From the NCBI GenBank assembly GCA_018242585.1, contig JAFEBQ010000004.1, positions 35,558 through 99,557 on the forward strand: 64,000 nt of DNA, written 5' to 3'. Under the pieces are notes generated by a model. That model worked only from the letters and a program-made list of their open reading frames with translations, did no database searches and was not told where the DNA came from. The stretch is from Planctomycetota bacterium. GTDB lineage: Bacteria; Planctomycetota; Planctomycetia; Pirellulales; PNKZ01. A program made the position numbers and the translations under genes. This document shows positions 22,498-52,839 of this stretch, piece by piece (positions within the stretch are counted from its first letter, which is position 1; each line of letters starts with the position of its first letter).

Positions 22498-25400
22498 GCC
22501 CCGCCAGCTAGCGATTCCGTTCCCAACCTCGGCCAGCCGCGAGGGGAAGCGCGTTCCCCGCTAGTCTGGGGCTGGGACCGGCAATCATTGCGACCGATGG
22601 CGCCACAGCCCGCGGCGCCCTTGGCCATTGCCGAGCGCGCCGATTACCGCTATGGCATCGAAGTCGGAGCGCTCGGCATCGCGCGCGAAGCAACTCCGCC
22701 GCCCGCGCGTCGAGCGGCCGATGAAGCCGGCGTATTGACCGAGTCGTTGCTGCCGCTGCGCAGTGGCACGCTCCGCTTCCAAAATGGGCTGTCGCCGATC
22801 TTCACACGCGCGCGGACGCTAACCATCCCGCTGCCCGCTCAATCGCGGCCAGTGCTGTACGTGCCCAATGCCGAAGAATTGCAACAACTGCAACAGCAGG
22901 TGGCGAAGCAACAGGTCAAAGTTGACGCGCTGCGACAAAAAGCCGCACAACGGCGCCAAGCCGAGTTGACGGCGCGCCGCGGCGGTGGCAACGGTTGGTT
23001 CAGCGTCGGCTTCTTCATGCTTGCCGCGCTGGGCGTCGTCGTCATGTGGTGCTGGCTGGCTCGGAGCGCTCGTGTCGGCGGCCCAGCACCGGTCGGCGCA
23101 ATCGAAACCGACCAACTCGATGACGTCTGGGACGAGGAAGCGTTCTTTGAAGAATCGGCTGCGGCCGGTCAGTTCGCGGCTTTGGCCTTGGAGCTCAAGC
23201 GGGCCTTCCTCACCGGACAAGCGCGGATCGACGCCTGGCTCGAACGAGGTGGATTGTTGCGTTGGTGGGACGCGCTGATCGCCGCCTGCGGTTCCATGGC
23301 TCGCGACGCGGTGGATTTGGCGACCGGCACTCGATCAACGCGCCGTCAGATCGCGCGGCGCGTCGGCCACCACGCGCTGGTTTACTGGTGCGTCATCATG
23401 TCGGTGCTCATCGGCCTGCCCCAATCATCACGCGCCGGGACGTTTTACTGGGATCCAAATCAGAACGTGAACAACAGCAATCCCTACAGCCTGGCCACGC
23501 AGATCGGGCTGGGTGGGGCTGGCACGTGGGACAACTTGACCACGATGTGGTGGGATGGCTCGAGTGTTACCGACACCACTTGGAACAACGCCGGCAACGA
23601 CGTGGCGGTGTTCGGCGGGCTGGTCGGCGGGGCCGTCAACTTGCAGGCCGCGGGAATCACCGTCGGCGGCGTGACGTTCAACACCACGGGCTATACGGTC
23701 GGCAGCGCCAACACCCTGACCCTGGGGGGAACGACGGCCACGTTGACGGCCAACGCCAGCGCCACCATTTCGTCGATCCTGGCCGGTTCGGCGAACATGG
23801 TGAAGAACGGCGGTGGCACCTTGACCATCACGGGCGCTTCGACCGGCTTTACCGGCGGCACGACGATCACGGCTGGAACACTGCTGCTCAAACAAGTGAG
23901 CCTGGGCCCCACGGGCACGCCGACGACCATCACCCTGAACAACGGCGGCGTTCTGAACACGTTCGACGCGGCGGCGTTTACGTACACCAACTTGATCAAC
24001 GTCCAAGGGGCGGCCACGATCACCAATGGCGGAAACGTCCCCACCACGATCAGCGGCGGGCTGAACGTGGCCAATTCGCTCTTCACGATTGCTGGCTTTA
24101 GCACCTATACGTTCTCGGGCGCGACGACGCTGGCTGGGCCGATCACGACGTTGAATGTCGGCAACACGGTCTTCCTCTCGGGCAACGTCACCGGCGCGGT
24201 GCTCAACAAGACGGGCGGCGGCCCCTTGGTGCTAAACGGCGGCGCGGGGGTCAACGACAGTTGGTCGTTCACGCCGACGTTCCCCTCGGGCGGCTCGAAC
24301 CCGATGGCCGTGACCAATATCCTGCAAGGCCGCTTGTTATTTCAGGGGGCCAATTCGCAATTACAAGCGGGGACCGTCCTGGTCAATGCCGGCGGTGAAC
24401 TGGAAGTCAGTACTGGCGCGAATCTGAATGCGGGCACGAATATCGTGCTGGCTTCGAGTCTGAATGGCATGGGCGCCCTCGGCTTGAACTCGGCGGTGGA
24501 CATGAGCGCGACGCCGATCGCCAATTTTCAGAACGCGATCGTGGGCGTGTACGGCGGCGCGTTTCAGATCAATAGCTCGACCTATACCTTCCCCATCGAT
24601 CTGTCCAACTTCCTCTGGTCGACCGGGGCTTCGAGCAGCCCGATCTATCTCGGCTCGGCGGCGGGCGGCACGTTAACGGGCACCTTGTCCCCCGACCCGA
24701 CCGGCGCCTATCGCTTGGGTGGGAATCTGTTGAACAACACGCTGACCGTGTCGGGCAACAACACATTTACCAACGCCACGGCCCCGTTGATCATCGGCTC
24801 GCCGATCGGCAACGTGTCAGGCTACAACACCTCGACCGGCGCCACGGTCATCAGCGGCAACAACGCCGGCTACAGCGGCACGGTGACCGTCAACGGCCGC
24901 AGCCAACTGAACCTGGCCGGCACGACCAATCAGAACCCCATCGGCACCGGCGTGATCGATTTGCTCGGCCTGAGCACGTTGAACATCAACGGCAAGTACG
25001 TGGGCACCAGCCCGATGCTGGGTAACACCACCGTCAATGCCTATGCCGGCAGCACGATCCAGTTGAACAACACGGCGTTCACCACCGCCAACACGAACGT
25101 CCGCTTCGATCCGTCAACCGTGCTGAACATGTACGGTTCGACGCTGAATTTCACCGTCTCGTACACGGGTGCCTTGACCACTTCGGCCCAGCAGTTCGCG
25201 ACCTTGAACATGTCGGGCGCGGTCAGCCTTCAGGCCAGCACCACTACCACCAGCGGCACCGGCACGTTGACCTTCTCGGCCTTGAACCGTAACGACAACG
25301 CCACCTTGGCATTCCTGGCGTCGACGACGTCGTACGCCATCATCGGCCGCGCGACCAGCACTGGCAGCGTGCAAATCTTCGCCCCCAATCTCAACGGCAC

Positions 25401-40400: not shown

Positions 40401-43400
40401 CGCCACGTCGGACGGTTCGATCACGTTGACGGTGTCGTCAACCTTGGGGCTGGCGGTGGGGCAAACCATCGTCGGACCAGGTATTCCGACCGGCGACACC
40501 ATTACGGCCATCGGCGCTGGCACCGTCACTCTGGCCGTCGCCCCCTCGGCCCCCTTCACAAGCCAGTCGGTCTCGACCGGCGGCACGGGCAACGTCGATC
40601 TGTTTGGCACGCTGACCTTGCAGGGAACGGGCTTCACCGGCGGCAGCTTGGAAAACAGCACCGGCACCGCCAACTCGAACAATCTGATTCTCCACCCCGG
40701 CGCGCAGCTCAGCTTTAACAACGGCACCAGCGGCAACATCGTCTCGACGTCGAGCGTGAGCGACCGGTTCAACGCCAACGCGTCGCTGGCGCTGTATGGC
40801 ACCACCGTCTCGATTAGCAGCCCGAGCAATGCGTCGTCGTCGATGTACATTGGCGGGGTCTCGTTCCTGGGCGGCTCGCGGATGGCGGCTATCTCGTCCG
40901 GCACCGGTTCGGCCACCTTGACCATCAGCGGCACGAACACCTTTACCCGGGTCGGCAACGGCACCATGGTGTTCCTCGACACCGCTGCCGGACGGTTGGG
41001 GAACACCACCGGCAACAACCGCGAGCAGATCATCGTCAACGGCGGTGTCACCAACATCAGCGGCACGGTCGTGAACGGCATGTTGCCGGCCTATTACATC
41101 GCCGGCAACGACAATACGTTCGTCACGTACGGCGCTGGCGGGTTCACCCGGGCCGCGTACAGCAATACCGTCCCGGCAGGCACGTTTACCCTTGGCGCCA
41201 ATGAGTTCGCCGGCACCGCCGTGGCCAACGTCACGGGTAGCGTCACGCTGTCCGACAACCCGGTGCTGTACGCAATGGCCATGGGCGCTGTCACGATCAA
41301 TAGCGGGGCCGGCCAGTTGAACACGATTCAATTGAACGGCACGACGGCTTCACCGCAGTCCGGCGGCGGCTTGCTCAGCTATGGCAGCGGCACGATCAAC
41401 GCCAATCTGAACTTCAACAATCAAGAAGCTCTGATCTACAACGCGGCGGGCGCCACGTTGACGATGAATGGCGTCATTCAAGGCGCCAGCACCATCACCA
41501 AGTTCGGCACGGGCACGTTGCTGGTAAACGCCGATCAAAGCAGCGCGGCCCTGGGCCCCGGCAACGGCTACGCCAACGGCTGGGTGGTGAACGAAGGCAC
41601 ATTGCAAGCCAACCAGTACGGCGCGCTGGGTGACGCGGTCCCGACCAATACCGTGCAACTGATTGGCAGCGCCAGCGGCGCCGCGACCTTGAGCTTGCAG
41701 TTGAACGTCAACGGCTTCCAGAACGCCACCTATTCGTCGGGCACGATCATCGCGGTCGACAACGCCGCCATCAACTGGCAATCAAACGGCAACGACCGCG
41801 TCAGCACGGTCGCGGATATCACCATTCAATCGACCGGCGGCGCGTTGGAGCCGGCCCAGTTCCAGTTGCAAATGAACAACCGTCTGCGCTCGATCCTGCA
41901 GGCGGGCGTCCTGACCATTCAAGCCATCGACACCAACGGCGCGGTGATTCCCAACGGCACGGCCAGCGCCATCGTCACCGTCTCGTACAGCACCACCTTG
42001 CCGGGCTCGACGACGACCACGCTGACCGCCGGGGTCGGGGCCACGGGCATGTCGGTGGCCAGCCTGGCCGGCGGCGCCAACACCACGTTGATGAAGTGGG
42101 GATCTGGCGAACTGTTCATCCGTGGCGACAGCAGCAGCGCCTTTAGCGGCAGCGTGCTGATCCAAGAAGGCGCTATTCAGGTCAACAGCAACGGCGCCTT
42201 GGGCACCGGCGCGGTAACCGTCAGCCGCTACGGCACCCTCGACATCAACGTGGCCAACTGGACACCCACGAATTCGTCGATCACCTACTCGACCGGCTCG
42301 CTGGTCCGCTTGTCGGCCGACGGCGCGCTGGCCGGCGCGTCGAGTTGGAGCCTGGGCGGCGCGACGCTGCAGGTCAACAACGACCAAGGCGTCGCCAGCC
42401 CGAACCTGTACGCCTCGCCGGTCACGATTCGTTTGAACGGCGGCTCGATCGAAGGGTTCATCCCCTATGAATCGAACATCATCCAGAGCAATCTCAGCCA
42501 GGGGATGGTCTACCGGACGTTGGGCTCGAACCTGACCATCGCGCTCGATGGTAACTCGTTCATCGGCCAGAACAACTCGCAAGGGGTCAACGGCCTGGAC
42601 AATGGCGCCCAGGCGAACGCGACGAGCCCGTTCACGCAAGCCGGCGCGGGCGCGATCCTGGTGGTCAATGGCGCGATCACCGATGGCAGCTTCGGTGGGG
42701 CCTCGTTGACCAAACAGGGCTTCGACACGGTGATCCTGGCGGGGCTCAACACCTACTCGGGCGGCACGTTCATCAACAACGGCATGTTGCGAATCGGCCA
42801 GACGAACGCGCTCTCGACGCTCGGCAACTTGTATACCACGTCCACCGGCGTGTTTGACTTGAATGGCTTCGACCAGACGGTCGCCATGCTCAGCAGCCAA
42901 ACGACGCCCACCACCGGCGTCAATCCCAACGGCGCCAATGGCTTTGTCTTCAACTCGGCGACGACGATCAACACCTTGACCATCGGCTTGTCGCCGTCGA
43001 CCTCGGCGACGTATGCCGGCCTCATTCAAGGCAACATCGCCCTGAATATCACCGCTGGCGAGACGGTGCTGGCCAACGCCAACACCTACGTCGGCGGCAC
43101 CACGATCAGCGGCGGCATCTTGACGGTGACGAATACTTCGGGATCGGGCGCCGGCACCGGCCCGGTCACGATCACTTCGGGCGCCCTGCAAGGGACCGGC
43201 ATCATCACGGGTCCGGTCACCTTGGGTGCCGCGGGCTCGATCAATCCTGGCACGTCCGCCTTCACCGGCGCGGGCCACCTGACCGTGAGCAGCCTGATTA
43301 GCAATGGCGGCACGCTGAACTTCCGCCTGAACGACACCTCGGCCAGTAGCGACCAGTTGATCATTGCCGGCGGCGTCGCGGCGCTGACGTTTAGCGCGCT

Positions 43401-46400
43401 GACCACGATTGGTCTCTCGAACCCCAACGGTCTGGCGGGCGGAAAAACCTACGCGCTGATCAACTACGGTGGTGGCGCGCTGGACCCGGCGCAATTCAAC
43501 ATGCTGCAACTGCAAAGCAGCACGCTGCTCATCAACACCACCAACTACAACGCCACCCTCGTCAACGACACGGCCAACCACTCGATTGACGTCTTGTTGT
43601 CCGCGCCGACCAATCTTACCTGGTACGGCGTCGGCACCTTGTCATCGAGCACCCAATTGGGAACGCCCGGCGTGTGGGATATCAACACGTCGAACAACTT
43701 CTACCAGGGGACGCTCTCGGGCGGTTCGGTCGTTTACCAGGATCCCAACGTCAATGACGTCACCTTCGATGACCACGCGGTATCGATCAGCGGCCTGACG
43801 ACGGTCACCCTGATCGGAAACGTCACGCCGCTGACCGTGACCTTCAACAACAACGCCAACAACTACGTGCTGACCGGCACGGGCAGCATCATCGGCATTA
43901 CCAGTGGTGGCCCTTTGACCAAACAAGGGTTGGGAAGTGCCACGATCGGCACCGCCAACACCTTTAACAGTGGCGCCTCGATCGAGAAGGGGACGCTGCT
44001 CGTCGCGGCCAGCACATCCCTCGACGGCGGCTCGACGGTGATTCAATCGGGCCCGCTGGGCACCGGGACCATCACGCTGGCGTCGGGAGCGGCCATCGGC
44101 GCCGACAACAGCAGCACCCAGACTCTGGCCAACAACATCGTTGCCAGGGGCGCCATTACGATCACCGGCAGCGGCAACCTGGTCTTCGACCAACAAGGGT
44201 TGACGGGGGTGAATCAGAATTACTTCTACCTGGGCGACAACACCACGCTGACCGTCAATAGCACCGCCACGATCAGCGACATCATTACCGATCAGGCATA
44301 CGGCACGGCGGGTAGCGGCGGCGCGAACCAAGGCTTCGCGCTGACCATTGCCGGCAGCAGCACGCTGAACCTGGGGGCGACGCCCAGCTACACCGGCGGC
44401 ACCGTGGTCAATGGCGGCACGCTCAACGTCCTGGCCAGCGGCAGCTTGCCCAGCGCGTCCAACCTGACGGTCGGCGCGTCCGGCACGGTGGTCCTCAACA
44501 ACATCGGTCAGTCACTGGCGACCGTCGCCAGCGATGGCGCCTTGACGTTTGCCGCCACCTCGGGCGTCAATACGATGGCCTCGCTCAGCGGCGCCGGCAC
44601 GACCAATCTGGCCGCGAACACGATCATCACTTCGCTGAACAGCTCGGGAATCATCGCCGTCAACTCGGGCACGACCACCACCGTGACGGTCAGCAATGGC
44701 ATCTTCTCGGGGGCGTTGAACGGCAATACCAATCTGTACAAGGGGGGGGCCGCGAGCGACCTGCTCACCATCTCGGGCACTGGCAACTATTCCGGCATCA
44801 CGACCATCGCCGCTGGCACGCTGAACGTGACCTCGCTGGCCGATGGTGGGCAAGTGAGTTCGGTGGGCGCGTCGGGCAACCAGTCGAACAACCTGGTCAT
44901 CAATAACAACGCGGCGCTGCAATACACCGGCACGTCCAATTCGAGCACCGACCGGCTATTCACCATCGCGGGCGCGAACGCCACGCTCGACGCCTCGGGA
45001 GCCGGAGCGGTGGTCTTCTCGAACGCCGGCAGTCTGAACTTCAGCAACAACGGCGCGACCGTTTTGAACCTGACCGGGAATAGCGCGCAGTTGAACGTGC
45101 TGACCCCGATCATCACAAACCCCACGAGCGGCCTCACCTCGGTGATGAAATCGGGCCTTGGCACGTGGGAACTGGCCGGCCTGAACACCTATGGCGGCGT
45201 CACGACCATCAGCAGCGGCATCCTGGCCGTCACCACGATGTCGGCCGGAGGCTTGGCCAGCAGCGTCGGCGCGTCGTCCAACGCGGCCGCCAGCTTGGTC
45301 ATTGGCGGCGCCACGTCGGCCGGCACGTTGCAATACTTGGGCAACGGCGACTCGACCGACCGCTTGTTCACCATCGGCGCCAGCAGCGGCACGATCGACG
45401 CCTCGGGCGCGGGCTTGCTTAACTTCACGAGCGGCGGGGCCATTGTATTTCAAGGAGCCGCGAACTCGACGCACACCATCACCTTGACCGGCACGGGCAG
45501 CGGCGCGCTGTCGCCGGTGATTGGCAACTTTGGCAGCGGCGCAACGGCCGTCACCAAGAACGGCGCCGGCCAATGGGCCCTCGCGGCGTTGAACACCTAC
45601 ACCGGTGTCACGTCGATCAACGGTGGCACGCTGAGCGTGAGCGTCCTGGCCAACGGCGGCGCGAACAGCAACATCGGCGCTTCGTCCAACGCGGCGGGCA
45701 ACCTGGTCATCGGCAGCGGCGGCGCATTGCAGTTCATTGGCTCGTCCGGAGGCTCGACCGACCGGTTGTTGACCGTCAATCCTGGCAACGCCGTGCTCGA
45801 CGCGTCGGGCTCGGTGGCCTTGCAATTCACCAACAGCGGAGCAGTCGCTCTGAGCGGCACCAATACCGCCCGGACGATCACCTTCACGGGCACGTCGGTC
45901 GGCAGCTTGATCAACACCTTTGCCCCGACCATTGGCAACAACGGCACCGGCGCCACGTCGGTCACCAAGGACGGCACGAACCTTTGGGCGCTGACCGGTT
46001 CAAACAGCTATACCGGCGTGACCCGGATTCTCAACGGCACGTTGAGCATGAGCGTCGTCGCCAACGGTGGCACGAGCAGCCCCCTGGGCGCCGCTTCCAA
46101 CGCATCGACGAACCTGGTCATCGACGGCGGCGCGCTGCAATACACGGGCGGCGCGGCATTCACCGACCGCCTGTTTACCATCGGCACCGGCGGCGCGACG
46201 CTCGACGCCTCGGGCAGCGGCCTACTTAATTTGAACAACGGCAGCGCGTTGACCTTGCTGGGCGCCAACACGCAGCGGACGTTGACCTTGACCGGCGCCG
46301 GCTCGGGGTTGCTGGCGGCGATCATTCCCGACAATGGCACCGGCACCACGCCGCAACTGTCGATTTACAAGGACGGCATTGGTTCGTGGGCACTGACCTC

Positions 46401-49400: not shown

Positions 49401-52400
49401 AACCACGTTCGACACGGGTTCGGCCACCGTGGCCGGCAACGGCACGTTCACCACCGTGAACAGCGGCACGTTGACGGTCTCGGGCGTGGCGACCATCGGC
49501 ACCATCGCCGGCGGCACCGTCCGCCTGGGCGGCGCGACGGCGGCGATCACCACCCAGAGCGGCGGCCTGGTCACCATCCTCGGCAGCGGCACGTTGACCA
49601 CCTTCTCGGGCGGCACGTTGACGTTCGCCGGGGCTTCGACCACCAACGCGATCAGCAACCTGACGGCCTCGGGGACCGTGGTCGCCTCGACTTCGAGCAC
49701 GATCTTGAACGTGAGTGGCGGCAGCTTCGCCGGCACGATTACCGGCAGCGGTTCGGTCGCGGTGCTGGGCAGCTTCCGCCTGGGCGGCAGCACCCAGAGC
49801 TATACCGGCACGACCACTGTGTCGGGAACTGGCACCTTGAACCTGACCTTGTCGAGCGCCATGAGCGGCACGACGGTCAACGTGAACAACGGCGGCGTGC
49901 TGAACGTGCTGAACGGCACGTCGCTGGCGAGCGGCACGAACCTGACGGCCGACGGCACGGTCAGCTTCAGCGCCGATCAGACGCTGGCCTCGTTGACTGG
50001 TTCGACCGGCATCGTGAGCATCAGCGGCACGACGCTGACGATTGGCGGCGGCAGCTACGCCGGCCAGATCAACGGCGTCAGCGGCAACCTGGCGGTTACC
50101 GGCACAACGACCCTCAGCGGTGCGTTGGGATACGATGGCGCCACGACCGTTTCGGGCACCTTGGATCTGAACCTGGCCAGCGTGATGAGCAGCACCAGCG
50201 TCACCGTCTCGAATAGCGGCGTCCTGAACGTGCTAACCGCGAACTCGCTGGCTTCGACCACCGCCCTGACGAACAACGGCACGGTCAGCTTCAGCGCCTC
50301 GCAGGCCCTGGCCAGCTTGGACGGCGGCAGCAGCGCTACCTTGAGCCTGGGCGGCAACACGCTGACCATCTCGGGCGCGGGCGGCAGCTTTGGCGGCGCG
50401 ATCAACGGCACGGGCGTGGTGGCGATGAACAGCGCCAGCGGCGTGCAGACCTTGTCGGGCACGAGCAACTACACGGGCGGCACCAACCTGGTGGCCGGCA
50501 CGCTGGTCATCGTCGGCGCCAACGCCCTGGGGACCGGCACGTTGTCGTTCAACGGCGGCGTGCTCCGCTCGTACAATGACGTGGCGCTGACCAATCCGAT
50601 TAACATCAGCACCTCGAACGGTGGCTTCGACGTGGTTAACTCGGGCGAGAATGTCACGCTGAGCGGGACGATCTATGGCTCGGCCCAGTTGACCAAGTTG
50701 GGGGATGGCACCTTGTGGCTGACTGGCGCCAGTAACTCGACCGCCACCACGTCGGTCCAAAGCGGCACCGTCAGCGGCAACGCCAGCAACGCCGGCACGT
50801 CCGTGGAGGTCACCAGCGGCGCGACCTTCTCGTTCAACCAGACCGCGCCGGGCGCTTACACCGGCACGATCACCGGCACCGGTAACATCCAGGTCACCGG
50901 CGGCAGCACCCTGACCCTGTCGGGAGTCGGCAGCAGCTACAGCGGCACCACCGCCGTCAGCGGCGCCACGTTGTACGTCGGCAACGCCGGCAACCTGGGC
51001 ACGGGCGGTCTGGTGATCACCGACGGCACGCTGAGCGGCAACCTGACCGGCGCGATCATCTATCCGTCGCCGGTCACCTTGTCGGGGAGCAGCAACCTGG
51101 TGGTGCCGAACACCGGCGTCACCATCTCGCTGACCGGCACCGTGACCGGCAGCGGCAGCTTCAACTACACCGGCACCGGCAGCACGCTGGTCTTGGCCAA
51201 CAATAACATCGGAGCGTTGACCGCTTCGCTGGCCGTCACGGCTGGCACGCTGCAAGTCACCAACGCCGGCGGCTTGGGCACCGGCACCGTAACGGTGAGC
51301 GCCAACGGCCAGTTGGCGTTCTCGAACCTGGGCACGATCAGCACGTCGAACAACATCACGGTCTTCAGCACGACTTTGAACAGCGCTCCGGCCCTGTCGT
51401 TCTCGGGCAACAACACCTTCAACGGCAACTTGACGGTGGGTGGTTCGGCCGGCAGCGTGGCGGTCGTCGGCCTGGATTCGGGCAGCTTCACGACTTTGAG
51501 TGGCACGCTGACCAAGACCGACACGATCTTCGAGTTCAAGAACACCGGTTCGAGCGTCGCCAATCTGTTCATCAGCGGCACGCTGGTCAGCGTCAACCCG
51601 GGCGGCGCCTACGACAGCGACGTGATCTTCAACGGCAATAACCAAGGCCTGAACGTCACGCTCTCCAGTGCCCAGAGCTACTCGGGGCCGACCTACGTCA
51701 CCAATGGCAGCACCCTGGCCCTGGCCGCCAGTAACGTGTTGCCCACGCCGACCAATGGCGGCGCTTACACGGACATGACGTTGACCACTTCGGCCTCGGT
51801 CACGACGTTCGATCTGGCCGGCAACAGCGATACGGTTCGCAGCCTGTCGAGCTTGAACAGCGGCACCTCGACCTCGGGCAGCAACATCGTCACTGACTCG
51901 GTGGCGACGGCCAGCACGCTGACCATCGCCATGACCAACACCACCTTGGCCAACGGCGCCACGGGCCTGGCCACGTTCAACGGCGTGGTCAGTGGCAGCA
52001 ATCTGAGCATGGTGATGGCCGGCGCCAGCGGCACCGCCCAGGTAATGACCGGCGTGAACACCTACGGCGGTTCGACCACGATCTCGGGTGGCGCTTACGT
52101 GGTGAACGGCTCGATCGGCACGGGCAACGTCACGGTGATGAGCGGCTCGAACGGCGCGATCCTGTCGGGCAACGGCACCGTGAACGGCGCCGTGGTCGTG
52201 CAGCACGGCGCCACCAGCGCTCAGGACGGTGTCATCAGCCCGGGCCTGAATGGTGTGAATGGCGCGACGGCCGCTCAGCAGACCGGCGTCTTGACGGTCG
52301 CCAACAACCTGACGATCAACGGCACCTACCTGTGGGATGTCAACCCGAACACGAGTTCGACGAACATCGGCACGGCCGGCACGAACTACGACCAGATCCA

Positions 52401-52839
52401 GCTCACCGGTGGCTCGAATGCCTTGACGGTGGGGGGCGCCTCGACCTTCGCCCTGAACTTCCTGAACAGCTCAGCTCCGCAGACCAGCGGCTTGCAAACC
52501 GCCGCCTTCTGGCAACAGTCGGAATCCTGGCACGTCGTGACCACGTCGAACTCCTCGGGGGTCTCGGGCTCGTTCTTCTCATCGATCACGGGCTACGGCA
52601 CCAACGGCTCGATCGCTGGCGTAGGCGGCTTCGCCTTCTCGACGACTGGCAACGACCTGGTCCTCACCTGGACGCCGGTGCCCGAACCGGGCAGCTTGAG
52701 TTTGGCGGCCCTGGCTGGCTTGGGTCTGGGCGCTTACGGCTGGCGTCGTCGCCGCCGCGCGGCCGACGAAGCCGCCAAGCCGGCGGTTGACGATGCGGCC
52801 ACGGCCGGCGAAGTGGTTGATCCGACGATGGACGCTTAG
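22411..52839 (+). CDS. giant (10,142 aa) secreted PATR-type beta-strand-repeat protein with C-terminal PEP-CTERM anchor
   Basis: Single uninterrupted ORF of 30,429 nt. N-terminal signal MYVKASRRWAAAWLLLLSFCSGFAPRLQA/A. More than 9,700 aa of G/T/N/S/A/L/V-rich repeats follow, with recurring K.G.GTL.L.G.N.Y.G.T.I..GTL units (autotransporter-associated beta strand repeat, PF12951/TIGR02601-like). The C-terminus is VPEPGSLSLAALAGLGLGAYGWRRRRR. Confidence 0.9.
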   Translation: MYVKASRRWAAAWLLLLSFCSGFAPRLQAAPPASDSVPNLGQPRGEARSPLVWGWDRQSLRPMAPQPAAPLAIAERADYRYGIEVGALGIAREATPPPARRAADEAGVLTESLLPLRSGTLRFQNGLSPIFTRARTLTIPLPAQSRPVLYVPNAEELQQLQQQVAKQQVKVDALRQKAAQRRQAELTARRGGGNGWFSVGFFMLAALGVVVMWCWLARSARVGGPAPVGAIETDQLDDVWDEEAFFEESAAAGQFAALALELKRAFLTGQARIDAWLERGGLLRWWDALIAACGSMARDAVDLATGTRSTRRQIARRVGHHALVYWCVIMSVLIGLPQSSRAGTFYWDPNQNVNNSNPYSLATQIGLGGAGTWDNLTTMWWDGSSVTDTTWNNAGNDVAVFGGLVGGAVNLQAAGITVGGVTFNTTGYTVGSANTLTLGGTTATLTANASATISSILAGSANMVKNGGGTLTITGASTGFTGGTTITAGTLLLKQVSLGPTGTPTTITLNNGGVLNTFDAAAFTYTNLINVQGAATITNGGNVPTTISGGLNVANSLFTIAGFSTYTFSGATTLAGPITTLNVGNTVFLSGNVTGAVLNKTGGGPLVLNGGAGVNDSWSFTPTFPSGGSNPMAVTNILQGRLLFQGANSQLQAGTVLVNAGGELEVSTGANLNAGTNIVLASSLNGMGALGLNSAVDMSATPIANFQNAIVGVYGGAFQINSSTYTFPIDLSNFLWSTGASSSPIYLGSAAGGTLTGTLSPDPTGAYRLGGNLLNNTLTVSGNNTFTNATAPLIIGSPIGNVSGYNTSTGATVISGNNAGYSGTVTVNGRSQLNLAGTTNQNPIGTGVIDLLGLSTLNINGKYVGTSPMLGNTTVNAYAGSTIQLNNTAFTTANTNVRFDPSTVLNMYGSTLNFTVSYTGALTTSAQQFATLNMSGAVSLQASTTTTSGTGTLTFSALNRNDNATLAFLASTTSYAIIGRATSTGSVQIFAPNLNGTSAAPPVTNGMVAPWMFDQTNLTFMNYGATGFIDAPWTSTLSTGTIGANPTGLVVVTANINTAAGASAWAFRTANNIGGTTLTIGSGGLIQTGGTISAPIVFGSVGTPVEAVLINTGNATISGAITANGLTRTGSTGTTLTISGANTNLTGTITVNAGTLSGSQTGLNYRPILLNGGTIDFNNGTVFYQNNITVNGDAQMSDSNGGQPRLGTLQVNARPNDPTDPIVLSMVNQNFDIGTTTLGGNTIFNVTSGTTRIDGPLVGEGVSFTKYGGSFLFIDSTTSSFTGSVTVNQGLLLLATGNNAGDTPLGTAGSTGNPIVVNPGGNLGITNTTVSGVTNVTLTSDTGGLAGIGLAYSGNAGLPLASSLSLTINSANYSAPFGGVVSINATGFSAPIDFGNIFGQSNWFLGSNFGGSFTGTLTPDTNGVYRLGGGGSTLTLVGGNNQINNSTFTGGVTVQFGAISNYYQASSVALFNGSGNVQIAVANNYSGSSIINAGETVFAANNNALGTSTIFFNGGGLAADSSSGLPTLSALRTITNTIGFYGDAVFTNTPSLVIAGQVNLGDGITGANRTLTINNAATSSTSDGMVIITGTISDGINGAANNSLTKGGAGVLALTNTNNSWTGATNINLGEILVTNDSQISSQSLITMNGGGLAAWTTSFTTDRPYVLYGLGLFDVGAGVTLTQALDVAGNSNLSGAGALNKLGLGTLLLNGVNSYTGITTISNGILAVSADVNLGDVPTKQSVTIQGGVLQVLNTTANLGSFTTSRNIAVTTSGGIDIAAGATATVAGVVSGTGLLTKLGGGTLFVAGNNTNTAVAIQNGVLQASGSLPFAATATLSFNGGTLSLKNLAANQTVTTSGASTYGGGGHLEIIAGATTTSTFTMSGALTRSGFGTLILNPGSTNTLGVTTAGGVRWLQTGNINGVAAASANVSGVGILPASIIVETNGIGNFAVSSGGTVGVRSYSGAVVTDLVSTPLQPTAIASISATQNLTGTSSIYALATSADITGGTLLVESLSNTNQGGILVNGNVTIGANLIADATYATGTTTSGEVLLYVAPGFTASVTGNVVANSFTKFGTGTLNLSSADFSVLGAVTVQEGTLRIGAGAGNLFSPGQTQLFLNNQGTLDLNGQSLMVAGLGNTAAVTGGIAGGIVGNSSNTNATLRVNSPNGAVTTFGGVIQDNLGSGTGKVTLNKNGQGTLVLSNFSTSNDQASQNSFTGGVNLTAGTLTIQDPQALGGANGTTPGAVNLYGGTLNLNSNGGGFNSAIILGNPTTTGLTLNLLGSAAINVDRTTASTSYTGNYFQIGTLNLGENTLSVTGADSYGLQVQDAVNILGNYAVIAPGTGYPSGTLSLAGVISGGALDIKALGNYTFTTVIAGNSNTYTGGTNILTGALQIVPTSGTPLGSGRVEVFPGAVLRLSSTFGNDGTIGGAALQVLSTKSTMGVVALDTSIDPSTLLTSSNFNSAYSVLLGISTPYFSQPLDMSTIGNGRAFLGGALNQEVDYTAATLGAGAAEPIITTLTGVSTPVYRLGGGVNSLALVGPDNLLTDKGGVPTFVQFGNPNSNVASVTLGGGTIYIRESNNYTGGTQIAKSTTVEIDVGSGPAGQTPLGTGTVEVYGTLQAGLPGGYNGVASFFNAATGTNSVNIQMRPGGSLLIFDAPGNVPGGQGRWGDNVPLDLNGGTFRFLGASSYDSSETIGVITVNKGSTLFVNRGAAGNAALTIGGTNATTAGLVRGTGGTLQIQVSTSSFHALGQADGVGTLSGQSDRLIVNGGISGIGGLSGVTNTGSGVIAGGVGMAAPWIVDLTNLTYVTYDPSGLGTGFQDVLPNNASPAAGQVGYSQIVNGAVFGAGASPGQDTIDVEVAATTLSSNIDAWAMRIGAQTTINPNGAFNQITLESGGLLVAAASTLGAATTSTGMLGLPAPMTLYFGNSSTSTPTEAIIYNSTTVTINAQIVANGLTKFGAGQLDIFSSNPSLSGTITINQGNLMVLNSISGIGTTVAGALNGQNVVLNGGGLVIDAFVGNASTATQASNIRATSYLGSNVTVNGDAAITNNGQSTLQRINALTLADLGPHSPINLTIQGIAVMGPVTLGANNNNIIASFAGMANEIFYGQVSGGMLSKWGNGTLTLVNPTNNYSGGTIVNGDAQGTATSVLASMTKTGTPFGTGPISVNPGGMLRIMDPSNIANQTVTLNSDGIGLAGLALAYNGPAPTITTSGTAQNGQVLVQSSGDFGGVLALDINFYTQAINQATLGNGKMFLGTSTSNTYFNATLTPGAPDSGTTPVYRLASGGNQGTLSLGGGFFENVLTAASSPTGTVSVQIGAATGADPTSTLATYVNGNGSLALNNRNNLTAGSIVQINGGAVPVISQNNTNGANLNLGNNLALGQATLVFNGGNLTDSTSIVLPAVNNLVLLADTMTASNGSEIDILGNVNMSPSGVGATRTWNMTSSTLAIDGVVSGVAGSDLIKTGNGLLLLGGQNTYLGTTTINAGTVLVSTNVLANQNGALGNSDTPVILGNAGTNTAGSMGLAGQVTFGRDIQTTPNGTASNNLYGQALAYANITGGINLTGTMSVLQFSSTTNTGGILDLQGAISGTGALSLGAQVSTQSGTVRISGSTNGLSGNNFTGGVTLAGGRLQIGADTYYTGSTNSGTILSGPLGTGTLTLSGTGVVLEAYGAARLIMNPLGALSSTSATTVAFGGHNSLTFANSTAFNINSSASSLARTFNVQTTQGVVTIMAPLTQTGTTSLTKTGAGTLVLSGANAFSGGITISQGTLEVFADNNLGAVTSTSNNMTLGSANNYAQLMLGGGSSLVWNSGLGNSNRVLTLAGPSSLNLLAGSSLNINTKVTAAAANPLSVIGPGTLSLNNTTNAIVNLIVGGDPSGGGIVQTTATLGTPFTTGAGNNVTLYSGELFVNNSAGAAAQSITIGALNYAGGGYVAMAMGSVATTTSTLIATALTRQAQGTIIISPSALANLGLTEKFATGTAQSVTNGMLTLPSIVVQDVTASPVTAGGIVYGDLNFAAYNASSGSFVVNTTSTTSSLDASNATSLAALIASTTVGTAAGQTIDIYAVQTSANISPFDPTNVLRINNGGLILNGTTSAPLVSANLFFGTSSSATEALVYVRGGQTGFSTISGNITATNFTKAGAGSLVLSGTSNLLTSSTTTSVATVAIDQGVLQFAGQSAVFSSTFSSGASASGLVNIAPVDQGTLDLNGQNLTFAGLGFANSSTSTGIVTNSAGTTASLTLNGYNQTTTFNGALSGNLNLNKTGSGTLVLGNNSSYSGTTTIYAGQIFSASSSYSANGAVQIQGVTSLGTGPIVLAGGALTISAVLGATAIAGNEVEDNISVLQIGPNNGYDVTVAALNNYGAPNTTSNISATGAAAWQVINSLNVLAPVVSFGGSGSNILVRGGATFSGTVAGMNVVMTDGAGGTVTSNSAVINVVNQVVLGGPVSAPGSVITKIGGSTLFLTNTGDQGNAANNVGAWQVEVGTIETRVTGGGVSPLGPNATLILNGASWNLRDDGDNTNNSQLLTEFQNNTIQIGSLGSITSMNYQSSANATIDSRTLSLGNNKTVLINNLVFGGPLGTAFLSPTGANNYSYQINNLSLQGRDAALSMGLSMTVNNLSGNGTLFRQGGATLYINGNNSTTGNTGGTVMAGGTLAFGSLMGTNLIQLNNSATLGPGNITIQPGAIVRFNSPTNLANAGQLVDVRSNLSNLGILGIGDNSPIASYNLRTPMAAGAYNSSMVLSLGTGGGILAINTQNYSQAIDLSRIGDGSWYLGSTSNGVGLNGSYDATSLGVGAAYNFGTSSSPINQAAYRLGGGGASLLINNSVLVGNAGVVVGLPRTNAANAVGNGTGTVILGSAQSYTGPTEVYSGSTLEFRGQLSTSQIETFGLVTAGGAGGTFVNSTGTGNIAVLARPGSEIRLDNQFDLLPNSATNGRWFDTAPVNLDSTILRLIGNFTTDIRETVGQVTVTGGSLIIANRSFNGRATELDIAGVTRSTNVAVTGSSGVYTIAGNNAMLSIEGAANTLGADERVIITTPANVPTVTNGMVAPWMVDRNNSQFLTYSTTDLGFIDAGFTLSMSGGLAGGITGGTDRAYFTASTTFSGGSTIDVYAARVDASLSLSSSFNGEQLILESGGLLVGGAAAPTILPQLVFGTPTASTEAMISIGNSGSANLTLGDITNPNSGAGQLLATSISKFGDGVLTLVANQPNFTGNIAVDRGTVSLQSVAGGASTAGGSNVAPSFTAGAVVLNGFNTTLSLGLGGANGTASTFSNSIVLGPNNPLATLAVLSAVGQTTTTSTAFLTGGLLFGGAPGEQGQTLQVTNPSGTTNSIQINGLVDLGTGGNVTVATTTTATLTLAGQVVGSSTLIKNGAGFGSTGVLALLNTANLNTYTGGTVLVSGTMFVYGSNSANTATYSALATGGLGSGAVTLDGGTLSLRIAADATTTFKTITFANDLVVNGNSTIVVDRGGTGIDTTSTTKNLAFNSLSIGSQNLTLLGANAFSLGVMGTTTLSGSPILTLASSDLVLNGSVTDNGSNQALIKNGPNNLWLNNGTATFTGTYSSGTTMNVSSTLGLYVGQTISGGTLPAGEVITAIGTNTITLAIAPSGAFSGQSMSATNGASYTASGGIDVNMGFLRFGNSSASGGNPNPFATAGTGTLTINPGAGIIIEGLGNLNSGQVVDVRSIASSLAQFVIHGNFDPTSYISNTSSGVLALYSTTFTTATGTTALNMSAIGDGTFYLGASQGGSVYSLSGLLPGRNTDGQSDIYRLGGGGTTLTLSGGIAGPLLADQSVGIPPVQVVIGSLATNGTGTVVLNQTNAYTGGTIISRGSGAIIVSGGANGMPFGGAVAPSFTATYDGNFSSLVAVSSGVGLTQNQVLNGAGLDPNTSIVTFSGLSLATTTATGSINAFNITVGSTAGLYPGMLLTSGAGVPADTTIVAISGTTVTLSNQLTAALSSASISVSPTIVLSTMPSGGAFTGALTAGGYTATSDGSITLTVSSTLGLAVGQTIVGPGIPTGDTITAIGAGTVTLAVAPSAPFTSQSVSTGGTGNVDLFGTLTLQGTGFTGGSLENSTGTANSNNLILHPGAQLSFNNGTSGNIVSTSSVSDRFNANASLALYGTTVSISSPSNASSSMYIGGVSFLGGSRMAAISSGTGSATLTISGTNTFTRVGNGTMVFLDTAAGRLGNTTGNNREQIIVNGGVTNISGTVVNGMLPAYYIAGNDNTFVTYGAGGFTRAAYSNTVPAGTFTLGANEFAGTAVANVTGSVTLSDNPVLYAMAMGAVTINSGAGQLNTIQLNGTTASPQSGGGLLSYGSGTINANLNFNNQEALIYNAAGATLTMNGVIQGASTITKFGTGTLLVNADQSSAALGPGNGYANGWVVNEGTLQANQYGALGDAVPTNTVQLIGSASGAATLSLQLNVNGFQNATYSSGTIIAVDNAAINWQSNGNDRVSTVADITIQSTGGALEPAQFQLQMNNRLRSILQAGVLTIQAIDTNGAVIPNGTASAIVTVSYSTTLPGSTTTTLTAGVGATGMSVASLAGGANTTLMKWGSGELFIRGDSSSAFSGSVLIQEGAIQVNSNGALGTGAVTVSRYGTLDINVANWTPTNSSITYSTGSLVRLSADGALAGASSWSLGGATLQVNNDQGVASPNLYASPVTIRLNGGSIEGFIPYESNIIQSNLSQGMVYRTLGSNLTIALDGNSFIGQNNSQGVNGLDNGAQANATSPFTQAGAGAILVVNGAITDGSFGGASLTKQGFDTVILAGLNTYSGGTFINNGMLRIGQTNALSTLGNLYTTSTGVFDLNGFDQTVAMLSSQTTPTTGVNPNGANGFVFNSATTINTLTIGLSPSTSATYAGLIQGNIALNITAGETVLANANTYVGGTTISGGILTVTNTSGSGAGTGPVTITSGALQGTGIITGPVTLGAAGSINPGTSAFTGAGHLTVSSLISNGGTLNFRLNDTSASSDQLIIAGGVAALTFSALTTIGLSNPNGLAGGKTYALINYGGGALDPAQFNMLQLQSSTLLINTTNYNATLVNDTANHSIDVLLSAPTNLTWYGVGTLSSSTQLGTPGVWDINTSNNFYQGTLSGGSVVYQDPNVNDVTFDDHAVSISGLTTVTLIGNVTPLTVTFNNNANNYVLTGTGSIIGITSGGPLTKQGLGSATIGTANTFNSGASIEKGTLLVAASTSLDGGSTVIQSGPLGTGTITLASGAAIGADNSSTQTLANNIVARGAITITGSGNLVFDQQGLTGVNQNYFYLGDNTTLTVNSTATISDIITDQAYGTAGSGGANQGFALTIAGSSTLNLGATPSYTGGTVVNGGTLNVLASGSLPSASNLTVGASGTVVLNNIGQSLATVASDGALTFAATSGVNTMASLSGAGTTNLAANTIITSLNSSGIIAVNSGTTTTVTVSNGIFSGALNGNTNLYKGGAASDLLTISGTGNYSGITTIAAGTLNVTSLADGGQVSSVGASGNQSNNLVINNNAALQYTGTSNSSTDRLFTIAGANATLDASGAGAVVFSNAGSLNFSNNGATVLNLTGNSAQLNVLTPIITNPTSGLTSVMKSGLGTWELAGLNTYGGVTTISSGILAVTTMSAGGLASSVGASSNAAASLVIGGATSAGTLQYLGNGDSTDRLFTIGASSGTIDASGAGLLNFTSGGAIVFQGAANSTHTITLTGTGSGALSPVIGNFGSGATAVTKNGAGQWALAALNTYTGVTSINGGTLSVSVLANGGANSNIGASSNAAGNLVIGSGGALQFIGSSGGSTDRLLTVNPGNAVLDASGSVALQFTNSGAVALSGTNTARTITFTGTSVGSLINTFAPTIGNNGTGATSVTKDGTNLWALTGSNSYTGVTRILNGTLSMSVVANGGTSSPLGAASNASTNLVIDGGALQYTGGAAFTDRLFTIGTGGATLDASGSGLLNLNNGSALTLLGANTQRTLTLTGAGSGLLAAIIPDNGTGTTPQLSIYKDGIGSWALTSNGSTYTGTVTINAGTLSVSTLANGGVASSLGKSSNAASNLLIGNNAALQYTGGNITTDRLFTIAGATAIVDASGSGTLTFSNAGAVAFGTVDQAATLQITGTGNAVFSTGLNDNGAGSVSLLKAGTGTWTLLGNNGYSGTTTISGGTLQIGNGGVTGTLSGTSGVTGTGGTLTFNRSGSIEFDAPIGGAVNVVQANAGTLILTGANGYTGTTTITSGTLQIGNGGASGSIANTSAVTDNGTLVFNTSGDTSLAAAISGTGAVIQNGSGTVTLSGANTYSGITTINGGTLSVASLAVGGLASGIGRSGSQSGNLVINGGALQYTGNGGITDRLFTVGTAGATLDASGPGLLQIANPGAIAYAGTGTNVTLTLTGSGTAALAAAINDIAGAQTAVNVAGGSWTLSSNTSAYSGGTTIGGNVYVTNTSGSALGSGAVTINAGGNLSGTGIVSGAVTLNAGGTIAAGILGTPGTLTLGSLATGSTGVVNINFALHDYQGVQGANSLLAITSATLPVFSTTTSVNITGLSGFGLGTYQLFSYAASGLLSAGSMANLQIGNVTGAGSFSYAFQNVANQIDLVVSAAVLNLTWTGADTPAQWDLTTTNNWLNGASPATYIDGANVTFADSPTTTSVTVATTVTPGSITFTNTTTAYTITGTGTIAGATTALQANGSGMITINNLNTYGGGTTVNGGTMVVGSSTQVTSGTLASGPLGLGTITLSDGVSLGGDGQTLANALAIAGGVTFTGSGNLTFDPQSLSAANTVTLLGNATLTVSNLTTTINDVITDLGNSRSLTKAGSGTLEIGAIAQYTGATIVNAGTLSVLSTGGLASGNNLTVAASAAAQFANANQTLGTANISGALTFSAAGASTIGSLTGSGTVTVTNASAISLAVNGGSFGGAINGSGALVFTGDTTLSGASGYTGGTTVSGGVLNVLSTGSLASTGNLTLTGTAAAIFANVGQQLAIVNNGSSTAGALSFSATSGTITLTQLTGSGNTLFASNANVTTFDTGSATVAGNGTFTTVNSGTLTVSGVATIGTIAGGTVRLGGATAAITTQSGGLVTILGSGTLTTFSGGTLTFAGASTTNAISNLTASGTVVASTSSTILNVSGGSFAGTITGSGSVAVLGSFRLGGSTQSYTGTTTVSGTGTLNLTLSSAMSGTTVNVNNGGVLNVLNGTSLASGTNLTADGTVSFSADQTLASLTGSTGIVSISGTTLTIGGGSYAGQINGVSGNLAVTGTTTLSGALGYDGATTVSGTLDLNLASVMSSTSVTVSNSGVLNVLTANSLASTTALTNNGTVSFSASQALASLDGGSSATLSLGGNTLTISGAGGSFGGAINGTGVVAMNSASGVQTLSGTSNYTGGTNLVAGTLVIVGANALGTGTLSFNGGVLRSYNDVALTNPINISTSNGGFDVVNSGENVTLSGTIYGSAQLTKLGDGTLWLTGASNSTATTSVQSGTVSGNASNAGTSVEVTSGATFSFNQTAPGAYTGTITGTGNIQVTGGSTLTLSGVGSSYSGTTAVSGATLYVGNAGNLGTGGLVITDGTLSGNLTGAIIYPSPVTLSGSSNLVVPNTGVTISLTGTVTGSGSFNYTGTGSTLVLANNNIGALTASLAVTAGTLQVTNAGGLGTGTVTVSANGQLAFSNLGTISTSNNITVFSTTLNSAPALSFSGNNTFNGNLTVGGSAGSVAVVGLDSGSFTTLSGTLTKTDTIFEFKNTGSSVANLFISGTLVSVNPGGAYDSDVIFNGNNQGLNVTLSSAQSYSGPTYVTNGSTLALAASNVLPTPTNGGAYTDMTLTTSASVTTFDLAGNSDTVRSLSSLNSGTSTSGSNIVTDSVATASTLTIAMTNTTLANGATGLATFNGVVSGSNLSMVMAGASGTAQVMTGVNTYGGSTTISGGAYVVNGSIGTGNVTVMSGSNGAILSGNGTVNGAVVVQHGATSAQDGVISPGLNGVNGATAAQQTGVLTVANNLTINGTYLWDVNPNTSSTNIGTAGTNYDQIQLTGGSNALTVGGASTFALNFLNSSAPQTSGLQTAAFWQQSESWHVVTTSNSSGVSGSFFSSITGYGTNGSIAGVGGFAFSTTGNDLVLTWTPVPEPGSLSLAALAGLGLGAYGWRRRRRAADEAAKPAVDDAATAGEVVDPTMDA
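39115..40575 (+). repeat. intragenic island of four ~55-60-aa non-PATR repeats (S.[LA]GL.VGQ.I.G.G.P.G..ITAI....[IV]TL)
   Basis: Copies start at ~39115, ~39995, ~40147 and ~40396. Example: VSSTLGLYVGQTISGGTLPAGEVITAIGTNTITLAIAPSGAFSGQSMS versus VSSTLGLAVGQTIVGPGIPTGDTITAIGAGTVTLAVAPSAPFTSQSVS. Confidence 0.7.
44785..47650 (+). repeat. intragenic tandem array of ~400-410-nt (~135-aa) units
   Basis: Unit starts (N.Y.G[VI]T.I..GTL.V..LA.GG...S..G.SSNAA.NLVI...ALQY.G....TDRLFT......LDASG.G.L.F) are at ~44785, 45186, 45595, 46006 and 46411, with a variant GTLQIGNGG unit at 46804, then 47227. Copies are diverged at the nucleotide level. Confidence 0.8.
52675..52758 (+). other. PEP-CTERM sorting motif (PVPEP + TM helix + RRRRR)
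   Basis: ccg gtg ccc gaa ccg at 52675-52689, hydrophobic GSLSLAALAGLGLGAYGW, RRRRR at 52744-52758, followed by a 26-aa acidic tail. Confidence 0.8.

What the first reader, a model, noticed from the sequence alone, without database searches (positions are those of the whole stretch)
43141..52760. Giant ORF looks like an in-frame head-to-tail fusion of three complete PATR proteins
A distinctive end-of-protein module occurs three times: 43141-43610, 47671-48150 and 52090-52674. Its pattern is G.V.L..GG.I.PG....G.LT[VL].SL, then a short stretch, then a ...D.L... block, then a small-residue tail. The third copy is followed by the real PEP-CTERM anchor. The first two copies lack an anchor and run directly into segments resembling the start of the mature protein at 23437. 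Those segments are LTWYGVG..VWDINTSNNFYQG...VNDVTFDD...VTLIGNVTPLTVTFNNNANNYVLTGTG at 43611, and LTWTGADTPAQWDLTTTNNWLNG..YIDGANVTFADSP...VTVATTVTPGSITFTNTTTAYTITGTG at 48151. For comparison, the native start reads GTFYWDPN..TWDNLTTMWWDG...NDVAVFGG...VNLQAAGITVGGVTFNTTGYTVGS. The simplest reading is that tandem paralogs lost their anchors, stops and signal peptides and merged into units of roughly 6,700, 1,500 and 1,560 aa.
Basis: inference. Interest (0 to 1): 0.75.

Follow-up and report, generated by a model that had tools for sequence, protein, structure and literature searches.

The report
Conserved seams inside a giant surface protein
A 10,142-residue planctomycete surface protein is built from three beta-helix cassettes joined by two copies of a conserved "helix-end next to helix-start" seam that also occurs inside well over a thousand other proteins, so it is a normal (if extreme) member of a modular family rather than a recent merger of three genes.

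Summary
The ORF at 22411-52839 (10,142 aa, PATR repeats, PEP-CTERM end) contains an end-of-helix module at aa 6932-7062 and 8445-8575. Each is followed 4-5 residues later by a start-of-helix module (LTW.G..WD....NW) at aa 7068-7157 and 8580-8651. With HMMs built only from other organisms' proteins these score 43-76 bits, and nothing else in the protein exceeds 4 bits. The true C-terminal module (aa 9935-10088) is a divergent subtype. The native N-terminus matches only weakly.

The same contiguous seam lies deep inside most of the 150 best relatives: 286 seams, with a 2-7 aa linker in 93%. An exhaustive search found 1,167 clusters at E<=1e-10. In relatives the seam-type halves sit at real protein ends only in a minority. 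There are no signal-peptide or anchor relics at the seams. The giant's own termini carry different subtypes from its seams.

Both end modules match the terminal rungs and autochaperone-like end of the Ssp autotransporter beta-helix. The gene is therefore best read as an inherited multi-cassette architecture expanded by internal duplication. Split orthologues could not be tested because no close relative was found. Interest is low to moderate.

The parts
22411..52839 (+). Giant ORF, 10,142 aa, with 46 PATR-like repeats and a PEP-CTERM end.
   Evidence: GC3 is 0.87 throughout.
22411..23436 (+). N-terminal extension, aa 1-342. Its composition differs from the rest. It contains a signal-peptide-like start, a Q-rich coil, a transmembrane-like stretch, and a second signal-like stretch (aa 318-342) just before the mature-like start. 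An alternative start is M296 at nt 23296.
   Evidence: No Pfam or NCBIfam hit. No homologue found. GC1/2/3 of .71/.55/.73 is coding-like.
23437..23703 (+). Native N-terminal cap (N0), a variant subtype of the start-of-helix module.
   Evidence: N-half HMM scores 3.1 bits, the third best in the protein. It resembles the true N-termini of P0009 and P0017.
23437..43611 (+). Cassette 1, aa 343-7067, with no seam inside. It contains its own super-repeats (aa ~905-2800 versus ~2677-5060) and the marker motif VTNGMVAPWM.D at aa 1011, 2802 and 5059.
   Evidence: (family D13).
43204..43596 (+). Seam 1 C-half, aa 6932-7062: the end-of-beta-helix, autochaperone-like module.
   Evidence: 43.5 bits with the HMM built from other organisms. 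The A4 profile aligns to Ssp residues 468-588.
43612..43881 (+). Seam 1 N-half, aa 7068-7157: the start-of-helix module NLTWYG...WDINTSNNF. It follows a 5-aa linker, LSAPT (nt 43597-43611).
   Evidence: 35.8 bits. Sequence shown.
44785..47471 (+). Run of ~135-aa (405-nt) tandem repeats inside cassette 2. Copies are ~50% identical in protein and 62-83% in DNA.
   Evidence: (families D3, D6, D8).
47743..48135 (+). Seam 2 C-half, aa 8445-8575.
   Evidence: 50.8 bits. AF2 model of aa 8387-8698 has pLDDT 86 and pTM 0.80. Foldseek best hits are Ssp 8e7f and the IcsA autochaperone 3ml3.
48148..48363 (+). Seam 2 N-half, aa 8580-8651: NLTWTGADTPAQWDLTTTNNW. It follows a 4-aa linker, AAVL.
   Evidence: 76.3 bits. 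Sequence shown.
52213..52674 (+). True C-terminal module (C3), aa 9935-10088: the terminal subtype of the end-of-helix module.
   Evidence: Homologues P0153-P0159 all end in a PEP-CTERM sequence. hhalign to the seam profile gives 98.8%. AF2 pLDDT is 76, and the best PDB hit is Ssp 8e7f with TMq 0.50.
52675..52758 (+). PEP-CTERM sorting signal PVPEPGSLSLAALAGLGLGAYGWRRRRR, followed by a 26-aa acidic tail (nt 52759-52836).
   Evidence: TIGR02595 scores 17.6 against a cutoff of 16. PF07589 scores 19.6 against 20.7.

Best explanation
The ORF encodes one giant, exosortase-type (PEP-CTERM) surface protein made of PATR beta-helix.

It has three beta-helix cassettes. Each opens with a Trp-rich start module and closes with an end module homologous to the last rungs and autochaperone-like end of classical autotransporter passengers. 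Where two cassettes meet, the end module of one and the start module of the next form a fixed seam of about 210 aa.

This seam is an old, widespread building block of planctomycete-type 'autotransporter-associated beta strand' proteins. The giant inherited the multi-cassette plan and grew mainly by duplication inside cassettes. It was not formed by a recent merger of three genes.

Inferred function: the end modules act as local folding nuclei or caps, so that a very long beta-helix can fold cassette by cassette. The whole protein is a long adhesive or matrix fibre anchored through PEP-CTERM.
For: Shown:
- The ORF has PATR repeats and a PEP-CTERM end.
- There are exactly two seams, detected with HMMs built from other organisms' proteins.
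- The same contiguous seam lies inside the proteins in most of the 150 top hits, out of 1,167 clusters at E<=1e-10.
- It also occurs in a Planctomycetota MAG protein with a different repeat background (L001).
- Among the 150 relatives there are 286 seams, and cassettes have a median length of 558 aa.
- The seam linker is 2-7 aa in 93% of cases.
- Seams within one protein are more alike (median 37.8% identity) than seams between proteins (30.5%). J1-J2 identity is 37%.
- A collinear paralogous block spans the seam: aa 6901-7500 matches aa 8413-8961.
- The C-half profile aligns to Ssp residues 468-588. That region is the PATR plus the autochaperone-like last rungs, according to PMC9977779.
- The AF2 seam model has pLDDT 86 and pTM 0.80, and its best PDB hits are Ssp and the IcsA autochaperone region.
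- C3 hits the same Ssp structure.
- There are no long, high-identity DNA repeats in the ORF.

Inferred: the folding-nucleus or cap role, and the adhesin or fibre role.
Against: - The top-150 list is ranked by score and so favours proteins that carry the complete seam. The terminal-versus-internal frequencies come from that biased sample and from a crude signal-peptide rule.
- The Foldseek E-values are modest (1.4e-3 to 3.9e-3), and model coordinates could not be inspected. Whether the helix is continuous across the seam is therefore unknown.
- The giant's cassettes (1,508-6,725 aa) are all longer than the longest of 283 cassettes in relatives (1,253 aa), so it is atypical of the family.
- No orthologue was available to rule out a fusion history.
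- No exosortase gene lies in the window.
Confidence: 0.7

Rival explanations
1. One reading: three tandem paralogous PATR/PEP-CTERM genes in this lineage lost stops, anchors and signal peptides and merged in frame.
For: - Seam-type modules occur at real termini in some relatives: the N-half follows the signal peptide in P0016, P0023 and P0083, and the C-half runs into PEP-CTERM in P0062.
- The bodies of units 2 and 3 are paralogous, up to 44% identity.
- An ancestral head-to-tail concatenation somewhere in the family history is a reasonable origin for the seam.
Against: - The seam is conserved, with a fixed short linker, in hundreds of proteins from other organisms. It therefore predates this gene.
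- C3 and N0 are different subtypes from C1/C2 and N1/N2.
- There are no relics at the joins.
- Three relatives whose ends carry seam-type modules are solitary genes with no adjacent PATR gene.
Confidence: 0.12
2. The seam is not merely a pair of caps. It is a functional domain in its own right, for example a ligand- or glycan-binding platform displayed at intervals along the fibre.
For: - The N-half has invariant aromatic and acidic residues (W, W-D, N-W, D..F).
- The seam is more conserved than the surrounding repeats.
- Source databases label relatives as adhesins.
Against: - No similarity to any known binding domain in Pfam, NCBIfam or PDB.
- The conserved residues fit a hydrophobic helix cap equally well.
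Confidence: 0.1
3. A polyprotein: the seams are processing sites, and the giant precursor is cut into three separate beta-helix proteins.
For: Only the exact, conserved position of the join and its short linker.
Against: - There is no protease domain or known cleavage motif.
- The AF2 model treats the seam as one confident body, pTM 0.80.
- Only the last fragment would retain the anchor.
Confidence: 0.05
4. An assembly or sequencing artefact has joined separate genes into one ORF.
For: Repeat-rich giant genes are prone to misassembly. The first 342 aa look foreign to the rest of the protein.
Against: - Coding-type GC3 is uniform along the ORF.
- No DNA repeat is both longer than ~160 nt and above ~87% identity.
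- The same seam occurs in many independent assemblies.
Confidence: 0.03

Closest known systems
Multi-cassette 'autotransporter-associated beta strand repeat' proteins of Planctomycetota and relatives. Examples are P0003-P0005 with 6 seams each, MBN2580617.1 from a Pirellulales MAG, and the L001 protein of MAG CAVPTO010000003.1.
   Same: They share PATR repeats and the same contiguous C-half|N-half seam with a 2-7 aa linker. Many have PEP-CTERM ends. Their terminal modules are often of a different subtype from the seam modules.
   Different: Cassettes in relatives have a median length of 558 aa and a maximum of 1,253 aa. Here they are 1,508, 1,513 and 6,725 aa, and the protein is about twice the length of the longest relative sampled (5,881 aa).
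Classical type Va autotransporter passengers with PATR and an autochaperone region: Serratia Ssp (PDB 8e7f) and Shigella IcsA (3ml3, 5ke1).
   Same: They share the PATR motif followed by the terminal beta-helix rungs. The match is by profile (Ssp 468-588) and by fold. A short helix lies near the end of the module, as described for Ssp.
   Different: Here there is no beta-barrel translocator. The module is used internally as well as terminally. The anchor is PEP-CTERM. Pfam AC or Pertactin models are not hit.
PEP-CTERM/exosortase substrates (Haft et al. 2006, PMC1569441).
   Same: A C-terminal PEP motif, a hydrophobic helix and an Arg cluster. TIGR02595 is above its cutoff.
   Different: The Pfam score falls just below gathering. 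A 26-aa acidic tail follows the Arg cluster. No exosortase gene is visible in the window.
Planctomycete 'giant genes' (Kohn et al. 2016, PMC5177795).
   Same: A gene of over 20 kb in a planctomycete-type neighbourhood. Such genes were found in 15 of the 29 genomes surveyed there, the largest being 36 kb.
   Different: That literature does not describe the cassette/seam anatomy shown here.

Membership tests
PATR / TIGR02601 beta-strand repeat proteins | Repeats scoring above the PF12951 gathering threshold. | tested here: met
   The three thirds of the protein score 55, 76 and 128 bits against a cutoff of 27. A self-derived HMM finds 46 copies.
PEP-CTERM exosortase substrates | C-terminal PEP motif, transmembrane helix and basic cluster. 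| tested here: met
   TIGR02595 scores 17.6 against 16. PF07589 scores 19.6 against 20.7, which is borderline. The sequence is PVPEPGSLSLAALAGLGLGAYGWRRRRR.
PEP-CTERM exosortase substrates | An exosortase (EpsH/Xrt) encoded in the genome. | not testable with these tools
   None among the window's ORFs. The rest of the genome is unavailable.
PEP-CTERM exosortase substrates | An N-terminal Sec signal peptide. | tested here: inconclusive
   There are two signal-like hydrophobic stretches, aa 1-29 and aa 318-342, and the true start is uncertain. No signal-peptide predictor was available.
Type Va autotransporters | A C-terminal beta-barrel translocator domain. | tested here: not met
   Pfam finds only PATR and PEP-CTERM.
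Type Va autotransporters | A beta-helical passenger ending in an autochaperone-type region. | tested here: met
   The profile aligns to Ssp 468-588. Foldseek hits Ssp and the IcsA autochaperone region for the seam, and Ssp for C3. E-values are modest.
Seam-bearing multi-cassette PATR proteins (no curated model) | A contiguous C-half|N-half seam with a short fixed linker. | tested here: met
   Two seams with linkers of 5 and 4 aa. The family mode is 4 aa.
Seam-bearing multi-cassette PATR proteins (no curated model) | Cassette length of about 500-700 aa. | tested here: not met
   Cassettes here are 6,725, 1,513 and 1,508 aa, against a family maximum of 1,253 aa.
Recent gene fusion of tandem paralogues | Split two- or three-gene versions in related genomes. 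| not testable with these tools
   No close relative was found in the protein, genome, metagenome or exact-match look-ups.
Recent gene fusion of tandem paralogues | Relics of stop, anchor or signal sequence at the joins. | tested here: not met
   Only 4-5 residues separate the modules, and the DNA reads straight through.
Recent gene fusion of tandem paralogues | All fused units carry like N- and C-terminal modules. | tested here: not met
   C1 and C2 score 43-51 bits while C3 scores -0.9. N1 and N2 score 36-76 bits while N0 scores 3.

The most novel reading that the evidence does not exclude
The ~210-aa seam is an uncurated domain pair that places an autochaperone-like folding nucleus inside the chain. 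This would let non-autotransporter, exosortase-sorted beta-helix proteins fold cassette by cassette and so reach lengths of 10,000 aa. On this view the autotransporter autochaperone is one terminal use of a more general, reusable helix-end module.
Probability: 0.3. Interest if true: 0.5.

Novelty: new member of a known kind. Interest (0 to 1): 0.3.

Why it matters
It corrects a tempting reading. A sequence that looks like a protein end next to a protein start is not, by itself, evidence of gene fusion in these proteins, because it is the family's standard joint.

It also points to a widespread module that no Pfam or NCBIfam model covers: 1,167 clusters at E<=1e-10. A model for it would improve the annotation of giant planctomycete and related surface proteins.

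It links these proteins to the autochaperone region of autotransporters, which gives a testable idea of how extremely long beta-helices fold.

Tried and rejected
- **Self-BLAST.** Whole-protein self-BLAST returned only the identity hit, so 300-aa windows were used instead. BLAST scores obtained without composition correction overstate similarity in this G/T/S/A-rich protein. C3 versus L001 scored 64.7 bits by BLAST but gave nothing with composition-corrected phmmer. HMM and profile results were preferred for that reason.
- **jackhmmer.** With default filters it rejected even the self-match because of the bias filter.
- **Word-indexed homologue searches.** The seam region gave only 2 weak hits. 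The N-terminal extension gave none.
- **Searches for close relatives or synteny.**
  - Genome contigs returned one distant locus, L001.
  - Metagenome contigs returned one distant locus, L002, which has N-halves only.
  - An exact look-up of the downstream sulfatase found nothing.
- **Other scans.**
  - Tandem Repeats Finder found no meaningful arrays.
  - The promoter/terminator scan was uninformative.
- **Neighbourhoods of relatives.** The loci of P0016, P0083, P0062 and P0023 showed no adjacent PATR gene.

Full report
**The object**

The window holds one uninterrupted ORF, 22411-52839 on the + strand, of 10,142 aa. Pfam sees only PATR repeats (PF12951; 55, 76 and 128 bits in the three thirds) and a C-terminal PEP-CTERM motif. 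NCBIfam adds TIGR02601 and places TIGR02595 above its cutoff, at 17.6 against 16. A PATR HMM derived from relatives finds 46 repeats: 27, 11 and 8 in the three units.

The flanking genes are typical of a planctomycete: PSCyt1/PSCyt2/PSD1, DUF1501 and three sulfatases in a row. Genes of over 20 kb are already documented in planctomycetes. Kohn et al. found them in 15 of the 29 genomes they surveyed, the largest being 36 kb (PMC5177795).

**Checking the observation**

Self-comparison shows that C1 and C2 are each other's best matches, as are N1 and N2. A collinear block, aa 6901-7500 against aa 8413-8961, runs straight across the join.

This composition inflates BLAST scores, so I built HMMs of the two halves from 225 copies found in other organisms' proteins, with the giant left out.
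- The C-half HMM scores 50.8 bits at aa 8445-8575 and 43.5 bits at aa 6932-7062. The next best of 99 candidate segments scores 4.1 bits.
- The N-half HMM scores 76.3 bits at aa 8580-8651 and 35.8 bits at aa 7086-7157. The third best hit in the whole protein is the native N-terminus (aa 366-431), at only 3.1 bits.
- The motif W.G..WD....N[WF] occurs only twice in the protein.

The third end-like module (C3) does not score with the C-half HMM. It nevertheless has its own homologues, all ending in a PEP-CTERM sequence (P0153-P0159, E 6e-20 to 7.5e-4). Its profile aligns to the seam profile with 98.8% probability (E 1e-16) over the PATR lead-in and the first ~60% of the module.

**The same seam elsewhere**

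A profile of the two joins (A1) was searched exhaustively against 1.84 billion representative proteins. It found 3,889 hits at E<=1e-3, 1,167 at E<=1e-10 and 55 at E<=1e-30. In most of the 150 best hits, the best stretch covers the whole profile, end module and start module together, deep inside proteins of 1,000-5,400 aa.

A Planctomycetota MAG protein (L001, 2,875 aa, PEP-CTERM) has the same seam at about aa 2070-2260, within a different repeat background.

In the 150 relatives:
- Of 386 C-half hits, 286 are followed directly by an N-half, 53 lie within 120 aa of the C-terminus, and 47 are elsewhere.
- Of 384 N-half hits, 286 are preceded by a C-half and 18 lie near the N-terminus.
- Seams recur every ~560 aa. 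The median cassette is 558 aa, the interquartile range 496-676 aa, and the maximum 1,253 aa. P0003, P0004 and P0005 have six seams each.
- The linker between the halves is most often 4 aa and is 2-7 aa in 265 of 286 seams. The giant's linkers are 5 and 4 aa.

No Pfam or NCBIfam model covers the seam. Source databases call these proteins 'autotransporter-associated beta strand protein' or 'fibronectin-binding autotransporter adhesin', and one is from a Pirellulales MAG.

**Are the halves really protein ends?**

Sometimes. In P0016, P0023 and P0083 the N-half follows the signal peptide directly. In P0062 the C-half runs straight into the PEP motif. This is the minority pattern, however.
- Of 103 relatives with a signal-peptide-like start (by a crude rule), only 10 have a seam-type N-half in the first 150 aa.
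- Of 52 relatives with a PEP-CTERM-like end, only 11 have a C-half within 71 aa of the PEP motif. In 29 it lies at least 277 aa upstream, and 12 have none.
- True N-termini tend to carry variant W..W..NW motifs. The giant's N0 resembles those of P0009 and P0017.

The giant follows the family's usual layout: a variant start, then body, seam, body, seam, body, then a variant end and the anchor.

**What the modules are**

The seam profile matches the Serratia Ssp autotransporter (PDB 8e7f) by sequence at E 5.6e-11. The C-half columns align to Ssp residues 468-588. The Ssp paper places the PATR at residues 464-496. It describes the last three rungs as autochaperone-like and set off by a short helix (PMC9977779). 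The autochaperone concept is reviewed in PMC5767081.

An AlphaFold model of aa 8387-8698, built with 27 seam copies, is confident (pLDDT 86.3, pTM 0.80). It is all-beta with one short helix near the end of the C-half. Its best PDB matches are Ssp (E 3.9e-3, probability 1.00) and the IcsA autochaperone region (probability 0.96, TMt 0.54), followed by further autotransporter passengers among lower-ranked hits (IcsA 5ke1, Ag43, IgA1 protease).

The C3 model (pLDDT 75.6) also hits Ssp best, with E 1.4e-3, TMq 0.50 and 3.5 Å over 197 columns. All three end modules are therefore versions of the terminal rungs of a PATR beta-helix. I could not inspect coordinates, so the geometry across the seam is not established.

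**History**

Several results argue against a merger of three complete genes in this lineage.
- The seam is shared, with the same spacing, by hundreds of proteins elsewhere.
- There is no space for relics and none is seen.
- The giant's terminal modules are different subtypes from its seam modules.
- J1 and J2 are 37% identical over the seam core. That is the typical value for two seams in one protein (median 37.8%) and is above the between-protein median (30.5%). It is no higher than their best matches in other organisms, at 38-41%. The two seams are therefore old.
- The ORF has no long, high-identity DNA repeats, so recent duplication or misassembly is unlikely.

An ancient head-to-tail concatenation, or equivalently an in-frame duplication of a whole mature region, remains a sensible origin for the first seam in the family. 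The direct test, split orthologues, could not be run because no close relative was found. Four relatives with seam-type ends are solitary genes.

**How it most likely works**

The domain content, the seams and their structural affinities are shown. The rest is inferred. Each cassette is probably a beta-helix segment whose end module nucleates or caps folding, as proposed for autotransporter autochaperones. The start module would cap the next helix. The whole protein would be a long surface or matrix fibre held by the PEP-CTERM system.

What is unusual here is scale. All three cassettes exceed the longest cassette seen in relatives. They are swollen by internal repeats: a run of ~135-aa repeats in cassette 2, and ~1,800-2,300-aa super-repeats in cassette 1.

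**Verdict**

This is an extreme but recognisable member of a known kind. The pattern is the family's standard joint, not a fusion scar specific to this gene.

Noticed in passing
window 22411-23436 (aa 1-342 of the giant ORF): The N-terminal extension has a quite different composition from the rest (rich in W, R and C). It has a signal-like start, a Q-rich coil, a transmembrane-like stretch, and a second signal-peptide-like stretch directly before the mature-like GTFYWDPN. GC by codon position looks coding (.71/.55/.73), but it has no family hit and no homologue anywhere. The real start may be M296 (nt 23296). If any fusion exists in this ORF, this join is the better candidate.
   Followed up: partly
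window 25407-25453, 30780-30826, 37551-37597 (aa 1011, 2802, 5059): Cassette 1 has its own super-repeats of about 1,800-2,300 aa. Collinear diagonals link aa 905-2800 to aa 2677-5060. The repeats are marked by the motif VTNGMVAPWM(F/V)D, and copies 1 and 3 are 87% identical in DNA. This is a second kind of internal period, without C|N seams.
   Followed up: partly
window 44785-47471: There are about seven tandem repeats of ~135 aa (405 nt) inside cassette 2. They are ~50% identical in protein and 62-83% in DNA, and too diverged for Tandem Repeats Finder to detect.
   Followed up: partly
window 52759-52836: A 26-aa acidic tail (AADEAAKPAVDDAATAGEVVDPTMDA) follows the Arg cluster of the PEP-CTERM signal. 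Some homologues (P0153, P0154, P0156) also have tails.
   Followed up: no
window 53081-57839; 20880-21560 (-); 14210-17083 (-): Three sulfatase genes lie in a row directly downstream of the giant gene. A LuxR-type regulator lies upstream on the opposite strand, and a sigma-54 response regulator plus histidine kinase pair lies further up. Any link to the giant gene is unknown.
   Followed up: no
L001 3815-12442 (MAG CAVPTO010000003.1): This 2,875-aa PEP-CTERM protein has one seam set in a different repeat type (GS.G.ATITG.GS.W units rather than PATR). It shows that the seam travels independently of the surrounding repeat family.
   Followed up: partly
proteins P0047, P0066, P0078, P0118, P0122, P0124, P0125, P0027 (C-termini): In these relatives the last C-half is followed not by PEP-CTERM but by a conserved ~70-aa tail ending ...NQFD..G.F.....FYRLQ(L/V)P. 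This is probably a different sorting or terminal domain.
   Followed up: no
L002 7955-14977 (Ga0265338_10000025): This 2,341-aa ORF carries two strong N-half modules (aa 683 and 1025) with no detectable C-half before them. It is an example of the 80 'orphan' internal N-halves.
   Followed up: no
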